A stretch of 64,000 bases of DNA from Salmonella phage vB_SenS-3, in sequence record OR896822.1. One strand, written 5' to 3'. The position numbers were made by a program, and so were the translations under genes. Below are positions 5,203 to 38,920 of the stretch, one piece after another (within the stretch, counting starts at the first letter, position 1; each line of letters starts with the position of its first letter). The notes below the pieces were generated by a model that had not been told where the DNA came from, did no database searches, and worked only from the letters and a program-made list of their open reading frames with translations.

Positions 5203-5970
5203 TTATTCAGCAGCCGCAGCTTTTGCATCCAGTTTAGCACGCTTAGCGGCACCATCATAGTCCTTAGCAACCAGACCACGACGAGACAGCATAGATTTAA
5301 CACCGCGCTCAGACTTACCAGTTTTCTCAGCGATCTCAGCAACAGTCATGTTAGCCAGATCCAGACCTTCTAACAGATCTTCACGAGTTTTAGCACTTGA
5401 AGTTTCCTGTACCGGCATAGCAGCGATACGACCTTCACGAAGCAGGCTCAGAGCTTTACCACGGATCTGCTTAATATTGCGACCGAAGTGAGCAGCGATA
5501 GCTTCAATAGTAGCACCAGCAACAACCTGATTAACGAAATCAGTTTCTTCGTCAGGAGTGAAGGAACGAACAGCAGCAGTTTTTTCAGTTGGCTTAACAG
5601 AAGCAGTCATTTCCAGACTCAGGATCTTACCCTGTACCTGCTTAGCACCGAACTGACCACCAGCTACAGCAGCAGCGATTTCAGCGTAAGTATACTGACC
5701 AGCATGAGCGTTCAGGAAATCAACCAGTTCAGCTTCCTGTTCAGGAGTCCACGGGGATTTCTGTACTTCGTTAGCTTTCTGTACTTCGAAACCTTCTTTA
5801 CGCAGCTTAGAGCCAACAGAGCGAGCGGTAACGTCTTTACCAGTCTCGGTAGCCAGTTCAGCAGCGATAGCAGCTACTTGTTCTTGAGAGATTACAGCAA
5901 CACCCAGAGCAGTGGCTTTTGCTTTCAGAGACTCGGTTACACCTTCTACGTTCCAGTTCAGTTTAGACAT
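5203..5970 (-). CDS. putative DNA-binding protein with four tandem HTH-like repeats
   Basis: 255 aa, Ala-rich; four repeats of the pattern xEIAxxxGxxxxxxxGKxLSL; RBS present. Confidence 0.6.
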   Translation of the reverse strand: MSKLNWNVEGVTESLKAKATALGVAVISQEQVAAIAAELATETGKDVTARSVGSKLRKEGFEVQKANEVQKSPWTPEQEAELVDFLNAHAGQYTYAEIAAAVAGGQFGAKQVQGKILSLEMTASVKPTEKTAAVRSFTPDEETDFVNQVVAGATIEAIAAHFGRNIKQIRGKALSLLREGRIAAMPVQETSSAKTREDLLEGLDLANMTVAEIAEKTGKSERGVKSMLSRRGLVAKDYDGAAKRAKLDAKAAAAE

Positions 5971-6745
5971 TATTATTTTTCTCCAATAGTTCTTTAATCG
6001 ACAGGATTTCTATCCCATTCGTTTCGGCTTTCTTATAAGATGAGGAAGAACGTTTTGATTCATCCTCACAGATTAGGTATTTGACGTCTTTGGTAACGGA
6101 CTTCTTGACCGTATATCCTAGACTTTCTAAATAGTTTGTTGCATCCGTTCGATTTGCAAAATCTTGCAAAGATCCGGTAATACAGATCGTGATTCCATTT
6201 GGCTGGGCAACTAAATCATCCGTAATGATGATATCAGCTTTAGTACCTCGAATACCAGTTGAGAATTTCCATGGTAATTCAATAACATCCTTGCCTTGTG
6301 GGGAATTTAGCCAGGTTTTGTAATTTTCTCCAGCCTTGCCGTCAGCCTTCACATCGTGGAAGCTAGTGCAATTTTGGGACAGTTTCTTTGCTGCAACCTC
6401 TCCAATAAGAGGAATTCCTAAAGAACCGAGAACCGAACCAAAGTCAATGTCTCCGCGAACCTTAGTATTTAACTCGCTAATCAACTTAGCGGCAACCTTG
6501 CTACCAACAGCTCCGACCAAATCTTCTTCGGTCAGGTAAAACAGTTCTGAGATCTTAGTCAGTTCCAGCTTCTCAATAGTTTTCGGGCCAAAGCCCTTTA
6601 ACTTCATTTTTGTGCAGAAGTTCTCGATTAACTTACTTGATTGCGCTGGACAGTTGGACTTATTCCTACAGAATAATTGCCCGTTGACAAGATCTAGCTT
6701 AGAACCACAAGAGGGACATTGTGTTGGAATTTCGATTTTCATCAA
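5963..6745 (-). CDS. ligB: NAD-dependent DNA ligase, C-terminal part (Zn finger, HhH, BRCT)
   Basis: 260 aa; C4 zinc finger CPSCGSKLDLVNGQLFCRNKSNCPAQ; HhH-like GFGPKTIEKL; C-terminal BRCT-like region. Confidence 0.8.
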   Translation of the reverse strand: MMKIEIPTQCPSCGSKLDLVNGQLFCRNKSNCPAQSSKLIENFCTKMKLKGFGPKTIEKLELTKISELFYLTEEDLVGAVGSKVAAKLISELNTKVRGDIDFGSVLGSLGIPLIGEVAAKKLSQNCTSFHDVKADGKAGENYKTWLNSPQGKDVIELPWKFSTGIRGTKADIIITDDLVAQPNGITICITGSLQDFANRTDATNYLESLGYTVKKSVTKDVKYLICEDESKRSSSSYKKAETNGIEILSIKELLEKNNNV

Positions 6746-6944: not shown

Positions 6945-7919
6945 TTAGTCGTATACTCGCTCTACTATACAAGGGATTACACCACCAGCACGAATCACTC
7001 GAATCTGGCAACCGATCTCTAAATCGAGAGCGTTAATATAATCAACGTTATTAAGAGTTGCTTTAACGATTGTGGCATCATCAATAATCACCGGCTCGAA
7101 ATAACCAACTGGAGTTACTTTACCAGAAGCCCCTACTTGCCATTCAACTTTAACAAGTGTGGTAATTTCGCCTTCTTCATCCTCTTTAATAGCAAATGCA
7201 CCGCGAGGAAATTTATTAGTCCAACCTTCACGGAAGAATTTGTTGTTATCATTAATACGAACAACTTTACCATCCGTCGGAATCCACTTAAAGAAGGAAC
7301 GAACATTAACAACTGTCAAGAAGTTCTCATTCTCTAGCCAAAGCATATCTTTTAAATAGGCTTCTGTAATACCGACTGTTTCCGCTGAACACTGGATACC
7401 ATATGCAACGAAGATTAAACCACCTTCACCAATACGTTGCATGAAATCATCACTATCTTTCAGGTTAATAGCACCAGAAGCATAGTTACGTTTGTTCTCT
7501 ACTTCTTTAGTAATGAGAACTTCACCAGTGATTTGAGTTGGTACTTTTTGGGAAATAGTTTTGGGGATGTTCAGCATTTTAACATTATGCGTTACATCAT
7601 TCCCTAGAATACCGTTACCACGAGTTAACGCTTGAACAAACTCACCATTAATATATAATAGAGAAATCGCACAACCATCTAACTTATCAGTTTCAACCTG
7701 ACCAAGTGGGTTGAATGGAGCTTTATCACCACGATCGTAATAGACTTTCTGCAAAGAATACATACGATACAAATGAGGGATATCACCTTTCGGTCCGATT
7801 TCTTCCTCTAGTGGGAATCTTTTAATCAGACGATCATATTCTTCATCGGAAATAAGACTCATTCCCTGGTAGTACGCTTCTTGACAACGTTTAATAAAGT
7901 CTTTTACATTATTCATCAT
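6945..7919 (-). CDS. ligA: NAD-dependent DNA ligase, N-terminal part (adenylation + OB domain)
   Basis: 324 aa; adenylation motif KLDG (TDKLDGCAISLLY); separate ORF from the Zn-finger/BRCT part. Confidence 0.85.
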   Translation of the reverse strand: MMNNVKDFIKRCQEAYYQGMSLISDEEYDRLIKRFPLEEEIGPKGDIPHLYRMYSLQKVYYDRGDKAPFNPLGQVETDKLDGCAISLLYINGEFVQALTRGNGILGNDVTHNVKMLNIPKTISQKVPTQITGEVLITKEVENKRNYASGAINLKDSDDFMQRIGEGGLIFVAYGIQCSAETVGITEAYLKDMLWLENENFLTVVNVRSFFKWIPTDGKVVRINDNNKFFREGWTNKFPRGAFAIKEDEEGEITTLVKVEWQVGASGKVTPVGYFEPVIIDDATIVKATLNNVDYINALDLEIGCQIRVIRAGGVIPCIVERVYD

Positions 7920-10378: not shown

Positions 10379-10407
10379 ATTATACAGAAAAATTTTCCTG
10401 AAAGCAA
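10379..10407 (-). promoter_or_regulatory. sigma70-type promoter
   Basis: minus-strand -35 TTGCTT, 17 bp, -10 TATAAT, conserved ATTCATAAATTTGAGAGG leader. Confidence 0.6.
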
Positions 10408-15328: not shown

Positions 15329-15868
15329 TTATACCTTAAGTTTCTGAAGAGCCTTACACATTTCAAGATCTGGACTAAATTCCAGCATATAGCTTATAGC
15401 ATTTAAATCTTGAAGGTTTATTCCAGTCCTGCCATTTACAATAACAGTAGGAAATTGGTACATCATAGCACCAGCATCATCTAGGACGCACCAATGCTTG
15501 AGCTTATGTTTTTCTACGAAACGTAAGACAGAATTACCTCGAGATAAACCACCTCCAGTAAAATCTGTTGTACCAAGAAAACGATCGATCAAACCGAGTC
15601 CGGTCATAATCTGAACGTTCTCCATTTCATTTCGTACAGAAAACCATGAAGATACCCCAACAATCATTATTGGGGATGGCTTAAGAAAGTTCTGAAAAGC
15701 CTGGAGTAATGGCTTGTAAACCCAATCACCACCAAAGAATAGCTTTTCACTATCTGGAGCATGATGGTGAGAGATGCTCGAATTGAGCACCCCATCAATA
15801 TCCGGGAAAATCACAGGAGTATTACTTATTTCCACCAGTAGCATCCCACGTCCAGACTTTAACTTCAT
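15329..15868 (-). CDS. HAD-superfamily hydrolase-like protein (putative phosphatase/nucleotidase)
   Basis: 179 aa; N-terminal IFPDIDGVL resembles HAD motif I (DxDG); VLDDAG near C-terminus. Confidence 0.5.
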   Translation of the reverse strand: MKLKSGRGMLLVEISNTPVIFPDIDGVLNSSISHHHAPDSEKLFFGGDWVYKPLLQAFQNFLKPSPIMIVGVSSWFSVRNEMENVQIMTGLGLIDRFLGTTDFTGGGLSRGNSVLRFVEKHKLKHWCVLDDAGAMMYQFPTVIVNGRTGINLQDLNAISYMLEFSPDLEMCKALQKLKV

Positions 15869-16007
15869 CAGTAAAAGGAACTGGAACCTTCAATTCACCT
15901 TTACCCCACATAACAGATAGGAACAGAGAATAAATGGTAATCATACCGATTAGGTTGACAAACCATACTAGACCTTTCCAGATACCCTTAAAAATCTTCT
16001 TCACCAT
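15822..16007 (-). CDS. small membrane protein
   Basis: start set at ATG after RBS AGGAGGG; one hydrophobic helix (LVWFVNLIGMITIYSLFLSVMW). Confidence 0.4.
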   Translation of the reverse strand: MVKKIFKGIWKGLVWFVNLIGMITIYSLFLSVMWGKGELKVPVPFTDEVKVWTWDATGGNK

Positions 16008-16170
16008 ATTCTCCCTCCTTAATAAGGAACTCTTTCCATTCTGCTGTATCCTCATAGATAACGCAGAAATCATCACTCTTCCATGAGAAGTCATCAGTAG
16101 CAAATTCGAAACGGTAGCACCAACTACCGTCTGGCCATACTAAAAGATCACACATGCTTTTCTGGGACAT
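15988..16170 (-). CDS. hypothetical protein
   Basis: start trimmed to ATG after RBS GGAGGG; acidic C-terminus. Confidence 0.4.
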   Translation of the reverse strand: MSQKSMCDLLVWPDGSWCYRFEFATDDFSWKSDDFCVIYEDTAEWKEFLIKEGEYGEEDF

Positions 16171-16999
16171 AAATATTTCCCTCCATAAAAGCTTCAACTT
16201 GATCAATAAAGTGTTTATTACCAAAAACTTCGGCAGCTCCAGCACGCCATACAGTAACACCACGTTTCTCATATTCAAGCTGTTCATCATAGCGAACTTG
16301 AGGGTTAACAACCATCATCTTAGTTCCACGACATACAGCAGGGAATAGTTCCCAGTTGAAGTCAATCACTTGGTTGCTACAACCTACTACAATAACCATA
16401 TCATTGCTAGTAAGTGTATCAAACAGGTTAATCTGACCCATATACCACGGAGCCGTCTCACCAAAGAATGTTACGTTTGGTTTTACCCATTCGTAATCTT
16501 CAGGAACAATTGCAGTGTATCCAACATCTTCGATGATTTGATTGCGACCCCGACGATAGATCACCTCTTTCAAGTACCCGTGAGCGTGAATGATTTCATC
16601 ACGAGGGATACCAGCACGTTCCAGAAGGTCATCAACGTTAGTAGTGAAGTTCTTCACGCTATCCGCACCATAACGCTGGAACCATTCTGCAATTCGCAGA
16701 TGGGCAATGTTAGGCTCAACAGTCTGTAATTCCTGACGACGCATGTTGTAGAACTCATGAGTCTTGAGATACAGATCGTTACCCTCTTCATCAATGCCAG
16801 GGAAACGAGCACTGAAGTAGTTAGGATCATCTTCACCACAGAAGCGACGGAAGCCAGCTTCAAAGTTAGGCAAGCTACATACTTCCTCTAGATCGTACTC
16901 ATCCCACAAAGATTTTCCACTAGCAGTATCAGTACGGAAAGCACGAACACCACTATCAACACTTAAACCAGCACCACTAACAATGATTAGTCTACGCAT
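16148..16999 (-). CDS. Sir2-family (sirtuin-like) NAD-dependent protein
   Basis: 283 aa; sirtuin-like motifs SGAGLSVDSGVRAFR, TTNVDDL, IHAHG, VTFFGE. Confidence 0.75.
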   Translation of the reverse strand: MRRLIIVSGAGLSVDSGVRAFRTDTASGKSLWDEYDLEEVCSLPNFEAGFRRFCGEDDPNYFSARFPGIDEEGNDLYLKTHEFYNMRRQELQTVEPNIAHLRIAEWFQRYGADSVKNFTTNVDDLLERAGIPRDEIIHAHGYLKEVIYRRGRNQIIEDVGYTAIVPEDYEWVKPNVTFFGETAPWYMGQINLFDTLTSNDMVIVVGCSNQVIDFNWELFPAVCRGTKMMVVNPQVRYDEQLEYEKRGVTVWRAGAAEVFGNKHFIDQVEAFMEGNIYVPEKHV

Positions 17000-34905: not shown

Positions 34906-35850
34906 ATGTTTACTAAAAACACTAAAGAACTGACTTCTGAGCAAAAAGTAATTCGTACTATTAAACGTTGGGGTGTTGGTGCTGCTATTAGTCTTGGTGC
35001 TCTTATTCTGGCTCTCAATTCCTATACAGTTGTTCAGGATGGTACTGTTAAGACCCAAACCTTCCTGGGTAAAGTTAGCCCTAATCCTGTATTGCCAGGC
35101 TTCCATATTGTTAACCCATTTGCTTCTTTTGATACTTTTAGTACGAAAGATATTTCCATGAAACTGGATAAACTTCAGGTTCCTAGCCAGGATAAGTTTA
35201 AGTCCACTGTTGACATTACCGTTATGTTGCAGTTTGATGGTGCTAAAGCTCCTATGAACCGTGTTAACGCAGGTACTCAGGATCAAGCTCTGAACAAGTA
35301 CGTTGAAGAGAAGATGCTGTCTACGATTCGTGAGTTTGGTAAGTCTGTACCAAAAGCACAAGATCTGTTCGACGCTAAGATTCAGGCTCAACTGCAAACC
35401 GCTATTCAGCAAGAAGTAGAAGAGTATGCGCGTCCTTATGGTTACACCGTTAAGCAAGTATTCCTTCAGGATATTACTCTGCCACCGGTAATCATGGAAC
35501 AGGTACAGAACACCAAAGTTCGTGAAGAACAAGTTAACGCTGCAAAAGCTGAACTGGCTCGTGTTGAACAAGAAGCACAGCAGAAAGTTAAGCAAGCTGA
35601 GGCGGATCGTTCCGCTCGTGAAAACATGGCAGTAGCTAACGAACGTGACGCAGATGCTAAACTGTACGCAGCTAAGAAAGAAGCTGAAGCTAACGCCGCT
35701 CTGCAACGTACCATTACTCCTGAAATGATTCGTTGGAAGCAGCTGGAAGTTGAAATGCTTCGTGCTGAAAAATACCAAGGTGGTGTACCACAGACTGTTG
35801 TCGGTACTGGCTACGATGGTCAAATGATCATGGATATGCGTAACAAGTAA
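34906..35850 (+). CDS. SPFH/band-7 (prohibitin/HflC-like) membrane protein
   Basis: 314 aa; N-terminal TM helix, SPFH-like core, C-terminal Ala/Glu-rich coiled coil. Confidence 0.7.
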   Translation: MFTKNTKELTSEQKVIRTIKRWGVGAAISLGALILALNSYTVVQDGTVKTQTFLGKVSPNPVLPGFHIVNPFASFDTFSTKDISMKLDKLQVPSQDKFKSTVDITVMLQFDGAKAPMNRVNAGTQDQALNKYVEEKMLSTIREFGKSVPKAQDLFDAKIQAQLQTAIQQEVEEYARPYGYTVKQVFLQDITLPPVIMEQVQNTKVREEQVNAAKAELARVEQEAQQKVKQAEADRSARENMAVANERDADAKLYAAKKEAEANAALQRTITPEMIRWKQLEVEMLRAEKYQGGVPQTVVGTGYDGQMIMDMRNK

Positions 35851-35873
35851 TAGTTACACGTAATCTTCGAACC

Positions 35874-35908
35874 AAGCCCGCGTTTCCTTCGAGAGCGCGG
35901 GCTTTTCT
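35874..35908 (+). terminator. rho-independent terminator after SPFH gene
   Basis: AAGCCCGCG...CGCGGGCTT hairpin followed by TTCTGT. Confidence 0.55.
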
Positions 35909-36054
35909 GTATTTAAGGCAAAAGAAAAAGCCCATAAGTTATTCAACTAAGGTCTTTAGTATTTAATTCTTTAGAATCATATACTATTATTGCAGCAACA
36001 ACGTGCTAACCTTAAGTGCCCTGCGATTTTCCTCTAAAAAGTTAAAAAATTCGA

Positions 36055-36083
36055 TTGCTTGAATGCTAAATTCTCTGTATAAT
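36055..36083 (+). promoter_or_regulatory. sigma70-type early promoter
   Basis: -35 TTGCTT, 17 bp, -10 TATAAT, conserved leader TATAAATTTGAGAGAGGAATCAAAT. Confidence 0.6.
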
Positions 36084-36113
36084 ATATTTATAAATTTGAG
36101 AGAGGAATCAAAT

Positions 36114-37169
36114 ATGATTAAGACTGGTCTAGTAATTGGTAAGTTCGCACCATTAACGCGTGGTCATATTAACCTAATAAACACAGCAGCAACTATGTGT
36201 GAACGAGTTATTGTTGTAGTTAGTCATGATAATCGTTGGCTGGATAAGCAGAACACACGTGATAAGGAAGTATTACAGTTAAAGAATCGACTTCGTTGGT
36301 TAGAACAAACTTACGCGGATATTGAGCACATTTCGGTAGAGTACATTATTGAAGATGATATTCCTGAATATCCGAATGGTTGGCCGGAATATGCTAGAAT
36401 CCTTAATGAAAATTACGGACATTTGCCTGAGATCACCGTTTTCTCTAGCGAACTAGACTATGATGCAGAATATAAGAAATATCTGCCGAAGTTTGGTCAT
36501 TATATTGTAGATTCTGATCGGACTCGTGTTCCAATCTCAGCTACAATGATTCGTAATGATCTTATGAAGTATTGGGAGTTTCTTCCTAGCGTAGTTCGTA
36601 AAGATTACGTGCGTAAGGTTGTAATCATTGGGACTGAAAGCTCGGGAAAGACTACTTTAACAAAATACCTTGCGAAGCTATACAACACTTCGTGGGTAGA
36701 AGAATATGGTCGAACGTATTGTGAAGTTGATCTAGTTGGTAACGAAAATCTGCTTACCAGCGAAGATTATAGTAAAATTGCGTTCAGACACAAAGAGCTA
36801 GAGTTTGAAGCAGAACGTACTGCAAATAAGATCATGTTTGTGGATACAAATGCTTTTATTACTGAGTTCTACCACAGACTTTATGAACATAGTAAGAATC
36901 CTGTGGTTACAGCAATTGCAAAAGAAGAACATTATGATTTAGTAATTGTTCTAGCGCCTACTGTCAAGTGGGTAGATGATGGTTTACGTATTAACTCCGA
37001 TCGTTCAATTACTTCTGAACTATTCGAGCAGATGAAGAAAGAATTTCCAAATCAGTTCCCTGAAGGGCGTACTGTTTACATCGACTCTCCGGACTACAAA
37101 GTTCGTATGGACGAAGCAGTAAACGCAGTAGACTGGCTGATTCATCACTTTAACGTTGGAGAGTTTTAA
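36114..37169 (+). CDS. nadR: NadR-like bifunctional NMN adenylyltransferase / ribosylnicotinamide kinase
   Basis: N-terminal GKFAPLTRGHINLI (nucleotidyltransferase HxGH-type); C-terminal Walker A GTESSGKTT; ATG 36114 after conserved leader RBS. Confidence 0.8.
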   Translation: MIKTGLVIGKFAPLTRGHINLINTAATMCERVIVVVSHDNRWLDKQNTRDKEVLQLKNRLRWLEQTYADIEHISVEYIIEDDIPEYPNGWPEYARILNENYGHLPEITVFSSELDYDAEYKKYLPKFGHYIVDSDRTRVPISATMIRNDLMKYWEFLPSVVRKDYVRKVVIIGTESSGKTTLTKYLAKLYNTSWVEEYGRTYCEVDLVGNENLLTSEDYSKIAFRHKELEFEAERTANKIMFVDTNAFITEFYHRLYEHSKNPVVTAIAKEEHYDLVIVLAPTVKWVDDGLRINSDRSITSELFEQMKKEFPNQFPEGRTVYIDSPDYKVRMDEAVNAVDWLIHHFNVGEF

Positions 37170-37170
37170 T

Positions 37171-37827
37171 ATGACTAACTATCTCGTAAATGACTTTAAA
37201 AACTGGAAACCTCTGGAATATCTGTGGCTGTTCATAGCGGTTGTCTTCATTAGTTTAGCAAACTATAATGGTACAGCTCTAGATTGGGCTACTGCAATAA
37301 CCAATGTGGTTTGTGTTATTCTGGTTGCAAAAGGACGTATTTCCAACTATATTTGGGGCTTAGTGGGTGTTCTTACATATGGTATTACAGCTTTAAACGC
37401 AGATCTTTATGGTAACGCTGCACTAAACCTGCTATACTACGTTCCTATGCAGTTTTATGGAATGTACTTATGGCATAAAAATAAGCCAAGTAATCTGCCA
37501 GATGTTCCAACTAAGGTTCTGACTAAAGCCCAAGCTCTGCTGACTCTAGGGATTCTAGCAGTAGCCACGTTAGGGTATGGTAGTTTCTTAGCTACTACGG
37601 CTGATCCATTTCCAATGTTGGATGCATTTACTGCTGTAGGTAGTGTGATCGCTATGTGGCTTATGGTTAAGCAATATGCCGAGCAGTGGCTGATCTGGAT
37701 TGCTATTAACATTGGTACTGTGTACATTTGGCTTGTAACTGCTCAATCTACAGGTGCATCTTATGCAATCCTAGCAATGTGGCTAGTATTCTTAGGTAAC
37801 TCTATTATAGGAGCCTATAAAGGATAA
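37171..37827 (+). CDS. pnuC: PnuC-like nicotinamide riboside transporter
   Basis: polytopic membrane protein with W/G-rich helices; adjacent and co-oriented with nadR; ATG 37171 after RBS GGAGAG. Confidence 0.7.
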   Translation: MTNYLVNDFKNWKPLEYLWLFIAVVFISLANYNGTALDWATAITNVVCVILVAKGRISNYIWGLVGVLTYGITALNADLYGNAALNLLYYVPMQFYGMYLWHKNKPSNLPDVPTKVLTKAQALLTLGILAVATLGYGSFLATTADPFPMLDAFTAVGSVIAMWLMVKQYAEQWLIWIAINIGTVYIWLVTAQSTGASYAILAMWLVFLGNSIIGAYKG

Positions 37828-37854
37828 TTTGTACGCGTTAACAAATAAAGTAGT

Positions 37855-37878
37855 TATAGCCCTCGCTTAGAGGGCTAT
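37855..37878 (+). terminator. putative terminator hairpin after pnuC
   Basis: ATAGCCCTC-GCTTA-GAGGGCTAT perfect 9-bp hairpin; weak T-run. Confidence 0.45.
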
Positions 37879-37895
37879 TATACAGAAATTTTCAC

Positions 37896-37924
37896 TTGCT
37901 TAATATAGAAAATTTCTGTATAAT
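37896..37924 (+). promoter_or_regulatory. sigma70-type early promoter
   Basis: -35 TTGCTT, 17 bp, -10 TATAAT; leader identical to the nadR promoter leader. Confidence 0.6.
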
Positions 37925-37954
37925 ATATTTATAAATTTGAGAGAGGAATCAAAT

Positions 37955-38251
37955 ATGAAACGCATTGTACTTGCATTGACTCTAGTATCTACTTCTGTAT
38001 TTGCTGCTCCACAACAGGAACTTTGTCAAGTTCAAGTTTGTAATAAGCTAGAACGATTTACTCTAGACATTTGGTCCCACATTAAAGATAATATGGGTGA
38101 ACAGTGTTTTGATATTGTTCTGCCAAAAGAACAAGCTGTTCCTGGGGCTGTTCTCAGCTCAGAATCACGTTGGTGGCAAGGTTCTTCTATCAACCCAACT
38201 AAGAAGTCAGTGACACGTATCAAACAAGTATATCAGTGCAACGTTCAGTAA
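37955..38251 (+). CDS. secreted hypothetical protein
   Basis: signal peptide MKRIVLALTLVSTSVFAAP; paired cysteines. Confidence 0.5.
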   Translation: MKRIVLALTLVSTSVFAAPQQELCQVQVCNKLERFTLDIWSHIKDNMGEQCFDIVLPKEQAVPGAVLSSESRWWQGSSINPTKKSVTRIKQVYQCNVQ

Positions 38252-38259
38252 AATTTCAC

Positions 38260-38288
38260 TTGCTTAATGCCTAAATTTTCTGTATAAT
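38260..38288 (+). promoter_or_regulatory. sigma70-type early promoter
   Basis: -35 TTGCTT, 17 bp, -10 TATAAT. Confidence 0.6.
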
Positions 38289-38321
38289 ATATTCATAAAT
38301 TTGGAAGATTAGGAACTATTT

Positions 38322-38831
38322 ATGTTAGACTATGAGTCTATACTTTATAGATTCCGTTTAGAAGATGGTGTACTGGTGTGGAATCCGCTCTCCGGAAACT
38401 CCAGAGAGGAGAAGATATTTAATACTAAGTTTGCCAATAAACCTGCGGGATCTTTGCACAAAAGCTCTGGGTATATCAGAGTTAACGTTGATCACCAAGA
38501 TTACTTAGCTCATATCATAGTATTTATACTATATTATGGGTATAGGCCGGAAATGGTTGATCATAAAGACTGCAATAAGTTAAATATACATCCTTTAAAT
38601 TTAAGAGCAGCGGATAGTACCACTAATACTCATAATGCTAGTAAATCTTCTAGGAATACTAGCGGATTTAAGGGAGTATCCTACCACAAAGCATCTGGTC
38701 AGTGGCAGGGTAGAATAATGTTTAAAGGTAAGTCATACTCCGCAGGGCTGCACAGTACTCCTGAAGCAGCAAATGAAGCTCTAATTCAACTGAGAGAGAA
38801 ACTTCATGGGGAATATGCCCGAAATAATTAA
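38322..38831 (+). CDS. HNH homing endonuclease with AP2 domain
   Basis: 169 aa; HNH core PEMVDHKDCNKLNIHPLNL; AP2-like GFKGVSYHKASGQWQGRIMFKGKSY; stop abuts tRNA-Ser. Confidence 0.75.
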   Translation: MLDYESILYRFRLEDGVLVWNPLSGNSREEKIFNTKFANKPAGSLHKSSGYIRVNVDHQDYLAHIIVFILYYGYRPEMVDHKDCNKLNIHPLNLRAADSTTNTHNASKSSRNTSGFKGVSYHKASGQWQGRIMFKGKSYSAGLHSTPEAANEALIQLREKLHGEYARNN

Positions 38832-38920
38832 GGAAGAATAGCATAACGGTATTGCAGCAGATTGCTAATCTGTCGGTTTGAAACATAGCCTTGTGGGTTC
38901 GATTCCCACTTCTTCCGCCA
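38832..38920 (+). tRNA. tRNA-Ser (anticodon GCT), long variable arm
   Basis: acceptor GGAAGAA/TTCTTCC perfect; anticodon loop TTGCTAA; T-arm GTGGG-TTCGATT-CCCAC; CCA encoded. Confidence 0.8.

What the first reader, a model, noticed from the sequence alone, without database searches (positions are those of the whole stretch)
36055..37827. Phage-encoded NAD salvage operon: NadR-like enzyme plus PnuC transporter behind one early promoter
A consensus early promoter drives a NadR-like protein (nucleotidyltransferase HxGH-type motif GKFAPLTRGH, then a Walker A kinase domain) directly followed by a PnuC-like transporter. Together they could import nicotinamide riboside and turn it into NAD. The same window carries an NAD-dependent ligase and a Sir2-family protein, and bacterial defences such as Thoeris, DSR and other SIR2/TIR effectors act by depleting NAD; phage NAD-reconstitution pathways have been reported as counter-defences, so this may be a comparable, transporter-coupled route.
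Basis: partly seen in the sequence, partly recalled or inferred. Interest (0 to 1): 0.8.

Follow-up and report, generated by a model that had tools for sequence, protein, structure and literature searches.

The report
Known phage NAD-rebuilding operon (NARP3)
This T5-like Salmonella phage carries a two-gene operon that imports nicotinamide riboside and turns it into NAD; an almost identical operon from phage TrudiRoth was published in August 2026 as the anti-defence pathway NARP3, so the reading is right but not new.

Summary
A T5-type early promoter (36055-36083) precedes a 351-aa NadR-like NMN adenylyltransferase/ribosylnicotinamide kinase with no HTH domain (36114-37169). One base later comes a 218-aa PnuC-like transporter (37171-37827), followed by a hairpin.

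The window is an Epseptimavirus, 99.9% identical here to Salmonella phages bux and RA40. The operon is already annotated in about 200 deposited T5-like phage genomes.

- Osterman et al. (2024 preprint) predicted a phage NadR+PnuC NAD-reconstitution route.
- Yan et al. (Sci Adv, Aug 2026) characterised Bas30_86/87 of phage TrudiRoth as "NARP3". They showed NR binding by the transporter, NR to NMN to NAD+ catalysis, crystal structures 9X6H/9X6F, and rescue of phages from Sir2-HerA and DSR1.

The window's proteins differ from Bas30_86/87 by 2 residues each. All 25 residues named in that paper are conserved.

Small additions from this work:
- A private nonsense change removes the last 7 residues of PnuC.
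- The operon is a promoter-to-terminator cassette in a mosaic genome slot; T5 itself lacks it.
- The ligase and Sir2 genes cited as context are core T5-like genes, not linked to the operon.
- A deletion in a native phage has not been tested.

Verdict: real, correctly read, already known.

The parts
35874..35904 (+). Intrinsic terminator ending the upstream SPFH/band-7 gene (34906-35850); it isolates the operon from upstream transcription
   Evidence: 12-bp GC-rich stem followed by a T run; folds at -20.7 kcal/mol
36055..36083 (+). T5-type early sigma-70 promoter: -35 TTGCTT (36055-36060), 17-nt spacer, -10 TATAAT (36078-36083). The transcription start is inferred near 36090.
   Evidence: One of 25 exact matches in the window against 0.14 expected. 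About 98% identical to the annotated T5 promoter P15a. The start site is inferred by analogy with T5 PN25 (own knowledge).
36098..36107 (+). Ribosome-binding site GAGAGAGGAA in the conserved T5 early 5'UTR, 6 nt before the ATG
   Evidence: Read from the sequence. An identical 44-nt promoter/5'UTR block recurs at 37915-37958.
36114..37169 (+). NadR-like bifunctional enzyme, 351 aa, no HTH domain. NMN adenylyltransferase domain: residues 1-166 (36114-36611). Ribosylnicotinamide kinase domain: residues 167-351 (36612-37166).
   Evidence: NF005988 253.6 bits against cutoff 201, model positions 65-407 of 411. PDB 9x6f/9x6h E=1e-240; 1LW7 E=2e-55. 349/351 identical to Bas30_86, with 22 of 22 named residues conserved.
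36138..36167 (+). Nucleotidyltransferase signature GKFAPLTRGH: the (T/H)xGH motif, here TRGH
   Evidence: Aligns with GKFYPVHTGH of H. influenzae NadR. K10, F11 and H18 are functional residues in Bas30_86.
36630..36653 (+). Walker A P-loop GTESSGKT of the kinase domain
   Evidence: Pfam AAA_28 E=1e-31 over residues 168-314. Aligns with GGESSGKS of 1LW7.
37171..37827 (+). PnuC-like nicotinamide riboside transporter, 218 aa. Its start lies 1 nt after the nadR stop, which suggests translational coupling. It ends at a private TAA (37825-37827) that removes the 7 C-terminal residues present in all relatives.
   Evidence: PF04973 E=3e-43 and TIGR01528 120 bits. 4QTN E=7e-33. 216/218 identical to Bas30_87, with N45, Q94 and N180 conserved. 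None of 170 related records carries the stop codon.
37856..37878 (+). Stem-loop ATAGCCCTC-GCTTA-GAGGGCTAT after pnuC; a probable terminator with a weak T tract
   Evidence: 9-bp stem, -19.2 kcal/mol, z=-2.9. The pattern scanner did not call it a terminator.

Best explanation
This is a NARP3 operon (NAD+ reconstitution pathway 3) in an Epseptimavirus, a T5-like phage.

How it works:
1. Host RNA polymerase transcribes the two genes early in infection from a strong T5-type sigma-70 promoter.
2. The PnuC-like membrane protein takes up external nicotinamide riboside (NR).
3. The NadR-like enzyme lacks the DNA-binding repressor domain of bacterial NadR. Its C-terminal kinase domain phosphorylates NR to NMN. 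Its N-terminal adenylyltransferase domain then adenylates NMN to NAD+. Each step uses ATP.
4. The infected cell's NAD+ pool is refilled when defences such as Sir2-HerA or DSR1 destroy it, so the phage can finish replicating.

Basis of each step:
- Shown here by sequence: gene identities, domain architecture, conserved residues, operon structure and promoter.
- Shown experimentally by others on proteins more than 99% identical: NR binding by the transporter, its requirement for NAD+ restoration and NR-dose-dependent rescue, the two catalytic steps, NAD+ restoration, and rescue of phages from defence.
- Inferred: early timing, translational coupling, that the 7-residue C-terminal truncation of PnuC is harmless, and that the operon serves this role in the native phage.
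For: Family membership.
Near-identity to Bas30_86/87 and conservation of 22 of 22 and 3 of 3 functional residues.
PDB 9x6f/9x6h match, E=1e-240.
Published biochemistry, structures and defence-rescue assays: PMC13464706.
Earlier prediction of the pathway: bioRxiv 10.1101/2024.02.11.579819.
Promoter identity with T5 P15a.
The NadR+PnuC pairing recurs across phage lineages with matching genus counts, 791 and 748 records.
Annotated as such in about 200 relatives.
Against: The counter-defence role was shown only by plasmid expression with unrelated phages. The authors state that the native phage context was not tested.

The window's PnuC carries a private premature stop that removes 7 residues; its effect is unknown.

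NARP3 depends on external NR, with an EC50 of about 4-6 uM in M9 medium. Its value in nature therefore depends on NR availability.

T5 and many other relatives do well without the operon.
Confidence: 0.9

Rival explanations
1. General auxiliary metabolism rather than counter-defence. The operon raises NAD+ supply for the phage's own NAD-consuming enzymes (the split NAD-dependent DNA ligase and the Sir2-like protein) or for a larger burst, whether or not the host has a defence system.
For: PHROGs files both genes under 'moron, auxiliary metabolic gene and host takeover'. The phage encodes an NAD-dependent ligase and a Sir2 protein. No native-context defence phenotype exists yet.
Against: T5 and other Tequintaviruses keep the ligase and Sir2 genes but lack the operon, so it is not needed for them. 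Heterologous expression gives 10^3- to 10^4-fold rescue specifically under NAD-depleting defences. The two roles are not mutually exclusive.
Confidence: 0.2
2. In this particular phage the pathway is impaired. The private TAC-to-TAA change at PnuC codon 219 yields a defective transporter, which leaves only the NadR-like enzyme working on internal NR or NMN.
For: None of 170 related records shares the stop codon. In the published assays neither gene alone rescued infection.
Against: The truncation lies after the last hydrophobic segment and after the Pfam domain, which aligns to residue 216 of 218 at model position 171 of 175. It also lies beyond the region aligned to 4QTN. The three NR-binding residues are intact.
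Confidence: 0.1
3. The NadR-like protein acts mainly as a regulator, like bacterial NadR repressing NAD genes, or its adenylyltransferase domain is inactive because the first His of HxGH is replaced by Thr.
For: Some database records label it 'NadR transcriptional regulator'. The motif reads TRGH rather than HTGH.
Against: The match to the NadR model starts at position 65, so there is no HTH domain. TxGH is an accepted variant of the motif; for example, pantetheine-phosphate adenylyltransferase has it (own knowledge). Bas30_86 has the same motif, makes NAD+ from NR and NMN in vitro, and binds NAD+ in the crystal.
Confidence: 0.02

Closest known systems
NARP3 (Bas30_86/Bas30_87 of Escherichia phage TrudiRoth; Yan et al., Sci Adv 2026; PDB 9X6H/9X6F)
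   Same: Same genus (Epseptimavirus). Same two genes in the same order at the same genomic position, downstream of the SPFH gene. Identity is 349/351 and 216/218, and all named functional residues are conserved.
   Different: The differences are K51Q and V109I in the enzyme, and I57V and I213M in the transporter. The window's transporter also lacks the last 7 residues because of a private stop codon. The window has an extra HNH-AP2 endonuclease gene two genes downstream.
Bacterial NadR + PnuC (E. coli/Salmonella NadR, PDB 8X7F; H. influenzae NadR, 1LW7; N. mucosa PnuC, 4QTN)
   Same: Same NMNAT and RNK domains and motifs. Same PnuC fold family. Same chemistry: NR to NMN to NAD+.
   Different: Only about 34% identity to Salmonella NadR (H45). 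There is no HTH repressor domain. The two genes are fused into one operon, whereas in E. coli they lie at separate loci. They are driven by a constitutive phage early promoter, with no riboswitch detected.
NARP1 (Adps + Namat) and NARP2 (Nampt + NMNAT/NatV, e.g. Vibrio phage KVP40)
   Same: Phage-encoded two-gene routes that rebuild NAD+ to defeat NAD-depleting defences.
   Different: NARP1 rebuilds NAD+ from ADPR and nicotinamide through ADPR-PP. NARP2 starts from nicotinamide and PRPP. This route starts from imported NR and includes a membrane transporter.

Membership tests
NARP3 (phage NadR-like + PnuC-like operon) | Adjacent, co-oriented NadR-like and PnuC-like genes in a phage genome | tested here: met
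   36114-37169 and 37171-37827 on the same strand with a 1-nt gap, in an Epseptimavirus.
NARP3 (phage NadR-like + PnuC-like operon) | NadR-like enzyme lacks the N-terminal HTH domain but keeps the NMNAT and RNK domains | tested here: met
   NF005988 aligned to model positions 65-407 of 411. Pfam CTP_transf_like at residues 7-147 and AAA_28 at 168-314.
NARP3 (phage NadR-like + PnuC-like operon) | Residues shown by mutation or structure to be needed. Enzyme: K10, F11, H18, S37, E80, P84, Y86, G89, F110, S112, D115, V139, I141, E230, D275 and others. Transporter: N45, Q94, N180. | tested here: met
   22 of 22 and 3 of 3 are identical; the residue lists come.
NARP3 (phage NadR-like + PnuC-like operon) | NR uptake, NR to NMN to NAD+ catalysis, and restoration of NAD+ and phage growth under Sir2-HerA or DSR1 | not testable with these tools
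   Shown for Bas30_86/87 by heterologous expression. Not shown for this phage, nor for any native T5-like phage.
NadR family (NMNAT/RNK) | (T/H)xGH and ISxTxxR nucleotidyltransferase motifs; Walker A P-loop in the kinase domain | tested here: met
   TRGH at residues 15-18, ISATMIR at 141-147, GTESSGKT at 173-180. Aligned to 1LW7 across residues 3-345.
NadR family (NMNAT/RNK) | Score above the curated family cutoff | tested here: met
   NF005988: 253.6 bits against 201. The narrower domain model TIGR01526 scores 270.7 bits, below its strict cutoff of 341, as expected for a divergent phage clade.
NadR family (NMNAT/RNK) | N-terminal HTH DNA-binding domain (the trifunctional enterobacterial type) | tested here: not met
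   The protein starts at the NMNAT domain. It is therefore a bifunctional NadR-like enzyme, not a regulator.
PnuC transporter family (PF04973 / TIGR01528) | Score above the curated cutoffs over the whole domain | tested here: met
   PF04973: 148 bits against 27.3, model positions 2-171 of 175. TIGR01528: 120 bits against 42.45.
PnuC transporter family (PF04973 / TIGR01528) | Polytopic membrane protein that aligns with the solved PnuC structure | tested here: met
   4QTN E=7e-33 over residues 9-214. The crude hydropathy scan returns nine above-threshold stretches, some overlapping, between residues 12 and 216. No structure was predicted here.

The most novel reading that the evidence does not exclude
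The operon is one interchangeable promoter-to-terminator cassette in a hypervariable slot of Markadamsvirinae genomes, between the SPFH gene and tRNA-Ser.

The evidence is as follows. The same promoter/5'UTR of about 90 nt (T5 P15a) precedes nadR in this window and the Toprim gene T5.076 in T5, SHSML-45 and Bas33. A 44-nt identical copy flanks the operon on its other side. This suggests that cassettes are swapped by recombination at these conserved early-promoter modules, much as proposed for the promoter-stem-loop elements of T4-like phages.

The slot holds NARP3, the reversed T5.077-079 cassette of unknown function, both, or neither. It may therefore be an anti-defence island, which would make T5.077 and T5.078 candidate counter-defence genes.

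Separately, the native-phage phenotype of NARP3 is still untested.
Probability: 0.3. Interest if true: 0.4.

Novelty: already known. Interest (0 to 1): 0.1.

Why it matters
NAD+ depletion is a common bacterial anti-phage strategy. NARP3 shows that phages can answer it by importing a vitamin precursor and rebuilding NAD+, and it offers a portable module for engineering therapeutic phages.

For this window nothing new follows. The operon is a near-identical copy of the published one and is routinely annotated in relatives. What remains open is modest:
- whether deleting it in a native T5-like phage gives the predicted phenotype;
- whether NR availability limits it in nature;
- how the cassette moves among T5-like genomes.

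Tried and rejected
- Generic sigma-70 scan. It did not list the real promoter, because TTGCTT matches TTGACA at only 3 of 6 positions. I replaced it with a T5-specific pattern search and an alignment to the annotated T5 promoter P15a.
- The longer ORF starts given by the mechanical ORF list: ATG 36063 for nadR and TTG 37156 for pnuC. I rejected them because 36063 lies inside the promoter and the annotated and crystallised proteins start at 36114. For pnuC, the published residue numbering fits only a start at 37171.
- Riboswitch or leader upstream of the operon, such as the NAD+ or pnuC motifs. The Rfam E-value scan gave only sub-threshold chance hits, and the 5'UTR is only about 24 nt.
- Exact-pattern scans of IMG/VR for the TAA and TAC variants of the pnuC end. 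Both found nothing. The question was answered with a 71-nt megablast against deposited phage genomes instead.
- Recent capture from the host. Rejected: identity to Salmonella NadR is about 34%, and operon GC (0.39) equals window GC (0.40).
- Pfam on the alternative T5 cassette (T5.077-079). No hits; PHROGs returned only unknown-function families.
- Not run, because the identification was already decisive: the large protein-database searches, structure prediction and fold search.

Full report
**What is in the sequence**

- The promoter TTGCTT-17 nt-TATAAT lies at 36055-36083.
- It is followed by a short 5'UTR with the ribosome-binding site GAGAGAGGAA at 36098, and by an ATG at 36114.
- That ATG opens a 351-aa ORF ending at 37169. 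One base after its stop codon, an ATG at 37171 opens a 218-aa ORF ending at 37827.
- A strong intrinsic terminator at 35874-35904 closes the upstream SPFH/band-7 gene.
- A 9-bp GC-rich hairpin at 37856-37878 follows the second ORF.

The mechanical ORF list offers a longer start at 36063. That start lies inside the promoter and is not used in any annotated relative.

**The promoter**

The pattern TTGCT-N18-TATAAT occurs 25 times in the window, against 0.14 expected by chance. The strand distribution matches the two divergent early regions of a T5-like genome.

The roughly 90 nt from upstream of the -35 element to the ATG are about 98% identical to the promoter annotated as P15a in phage T5. The generic scanner did not report this promoter because TTGCTT matches the TTGACA consensus at only 3 of 6 positions. 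An Rfam scan found no riboswitch or leader.

**The two proteins**

The first protein is a bifunctional NadR-like enzyme.
- It matches NCBIfam NadR (NF005988) at 253.6 bits, above the cutoff of 201. The alignment covers model positions 65-407 of 411, so the N-terminal HTH domain of enterobacterial NadR is absent.
- Pfam finds a cytidylyltransferase-like domain at residues 7-147 and an AAA_28 P-loop kinase domain at residues 168-314.
- The signature motifs are GKFAPLTRGH (residues 9-18), ISATMIR (141-147) and the Walker A GTESSGKT (173-180).
- It aligns end to end with H. influenzae NadR (1LW7, E=2e-55).

The second protein is a PnuC-family transporter.
- It matches Pfam NMN_transporter (E=3e-43) and TIGR01528 PnuC (120 bits, cutoff 42).
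- It matches the solved Neisseria mucosa PnuC structure 4QTN (E=7e-33).
- Hydrophobic segments span residues 12-216.

**Origin of the window**

Megablast places the window in the genus Epseptimavirus (Demerecviridae, Markadamsvirinae). It is 99.9% identical over this region to Salmonella phages bux, RA40 and vB_SenS-3.

About 200 deposited phage genomes carry the operon. Most already annotate it as nicotinamide-nucleotide adenylyltransferase or ribosylnicotinamide kinase plus a PnuC-like transporter.

**It is already characterised**

The PDB search returned entries 9x6f and 9x6h, "Nicotinamide-nucleotide adenylyltransferase", at E=1e-240 with two substitutions. These are the crystal structures of Bas30_86 from Escherichia phage TrudiRoth, published by Yan et al. 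in Sci Adv on 12 August 2026 (PMC13464706).

That paper names the Bas30_86/Bas30_87 operon NARP3 and reports the following.
- Bas30_87 is a trimeric transporter that binds NR with a Kd of about 0.66 uM. It needs N45, Q94 and N180.
- Bas30_86 converts NR to NMN to NAD+ in vitro and binds NAD+ in its NMNAT site.
- Co-expressing both genes restores NAD+/NADH. It rescues T7, lambda and several Klebsiella phages by 10^3- to 10^4-fold from Sir2-HerA, and it also counteracts DSR1. The rescue depends on NR dose, with an EC50 of about 4-6 uM.

The idea had already been put forward in the preprint of Osterman et al. (2024). It notes that phage NadR genes usually sit in one operon with PnuC and might form another NAD+ reconstitution pathway. 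Phage NadR had also been catalogued by Iyer et al. (2022).

**Comparison with the published operon**

The window's enzyme differs from Bas30_86 at K51Q and V109I only. The transporter differs from Bas30_87 at I57V and I213M. All 22 enzyme residues and all 3 transporter residues named in the paper are identical.

The window therefore holds a member of NARP3 in every respect that sequence can test.

**What I can add**

1. The window's pnuC ends at a TAA where Bas30_87, bux and RA40 have TAC, which removes the last 7 residues (YFVRVNK). No other record among 170 related phage records matches this 71-nt stretch exactly; the best matches have one mismatch. So this is a private change. It lies beyond the Pfam domain and beyond the part aligned to 4QTN. 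I infer it is harmless, but this is untested.

2. The NAD-dependent ligase (5963-6745 and 6945-7919, minus strand) and the Sir2-family gene (16148-16999, minus strand) are real. Phage T5 has both (T5.116/117 and T5.102) yet lacks nadR and pnuC. They are core T5-like genes and say nothing specific about the operon.

3. The operon occupies a mosaic slot between the SPFH gene and tRNA-Ser.
   - T5 has a reversed three-gene cassette of unknown function (T5.077-079) plus the Toprim gene T5.076.
   - SHSML-45 and HildyBeyeler (Bas33) have only the T5.076 homologue.
   - vB_SenS-AKM_ECS has a reversed two-gene cassette where T5 has T5.078/T5.077, followed by the operon.
   - STWB21 has a similar reversed pair plus a 98-aa gene at the position of the window's 98-aa secreted-protein gene. 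Homology of these cassettes to the T5 genes was not tested.
   - The P15a promoter/5'UTR block is the common left junction, right up to the start codon. A 44-nt identical copy lies at 37915-37958, on the other side of the operon. This suggests cassette exchange by recombination at these conserved modules; it is an inference only.
   - Operon GC (0.39) equals window GC (0.40), and identity to Salmonella NadR is only about 34%. The operon is therefore not a recent capture from the host.

4. tblastn finds NadR homologues in 791 and PnuC homologues in 748 of 50,697 phage records, with nearly matching genus counts: Vibrio 355/345, Salmonella 173/173, Klebsiella 47/47, Bacillus 24/24, Lactobacillus 18/18. 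In the Vibrio phage D-series, which share a ~114-kb genome layout, the NadR and PnuC matches fall about 200 nt apart, although the sampled rows came from different isolates. The pairing is thus wider than the 124 operons counted in the NARP3 paper, which searched with the Bas30 operon itself.

**What remains open**

The authors state that NARP3 was not examined in its native phage. The main rival is that the operon chiefly serves general NAD supply rather than counter-defence. That rival is not excluded, but it is weakened because relatives that keep the same NAD-using genes lack the operon. The decisive experiment is a deletion in a native Epseptimavirus, tested on defence-carrying and defence-free hosts with controlled NR.

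**Verdict**

Interest is low.

Noticed in passing
window 37825-37827: A private nonsense change (TAC to TAA, Y219*) shortens PnuC by 7 C-terminal residues compared with Bas30_87, bux and RA40. None of 170 related phage records matches this 71-nt stretch exactly.
   Followed up: yes
window 36029-36117 and 37915-37958; L005 (T5) 15790-15890: The nadR promoter/5'UTR is about 98% identical to the annotated T5 early promoter P15a, which drives the Toprim gene T5.076 in T5. A 44-nt identical copy (-10 element, 5'UTR, RBS, ATG) recurs just after the operon, so the operon is flanked by direct repeats that could mediate gain or loss of the cassette.
   Followed up: partly
window 35851-38900; L005 15280-17800; L006; L007; L010; L011: The slot between the SPFH gene and tRNA-Ser is mosaic among T5-like phages. 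It holds NARP3, a reversed T5.077-079 cassette (phrog_8119 and phrog_7894, unknown function, no Pfam hit), both, or only a T5.076 homologue. It may be an accessory or anti-defence hotspot.
   Followed up: partly
window 37955-38251 (+): A 98-aa protein with an N-terminal signal-peptide-like segment (MKRIVLALTLVSTSVFA...). It matches phrog_6894 (unknown function) and no Pfam family. It is expressed from its own copy of the early promoter cassette.
   Followed up: partly
window 38322-38831 (+): An HNH_3 plus AP2-domain homing-endonuclease-like gene behind a third copy of the promoter cassette (38260-38288). It is present in RA40, absent from TrudiRoth, and annotated as two short ORFs in bux.
   Followed up: partly
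window 16148-16999 (-): A phage-encoded Sir2-family protein (Pfam SIR2, E=2e-21). It is a core gene of T5-like phages (T5.102), and its role is unknown. It is itself a potential NAD+ consumer on the phage side.
   Followed up: partly
window, whole (e.g. 10379-10407, minus strand): There are 25 exact T5-type early promoters (TTGCT-N18-TATAAT): on the minus strand up to about 17.7 kb and on the plus strand from about 19.9 kb. The site at 10379-10407 is TTGCTTTCAGGAAAATTTTTCTGTATAAT, which to my knowledge is the core of the classic PN25 promoter used in expression vectors.
   Followed up: no
phage collection: NadR-like and PnuC-like genes co-occur in about 750-790 phage records with near-matching genus counts. 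Hosts include Vibrio, Klebsiella, Bacillus, Lactobacillus, Enterococcus and Prevotella. This is far beyond the 124 Enterobacteriaceae-phage operons counted in the NARP3 paper.
   Followed up: partly
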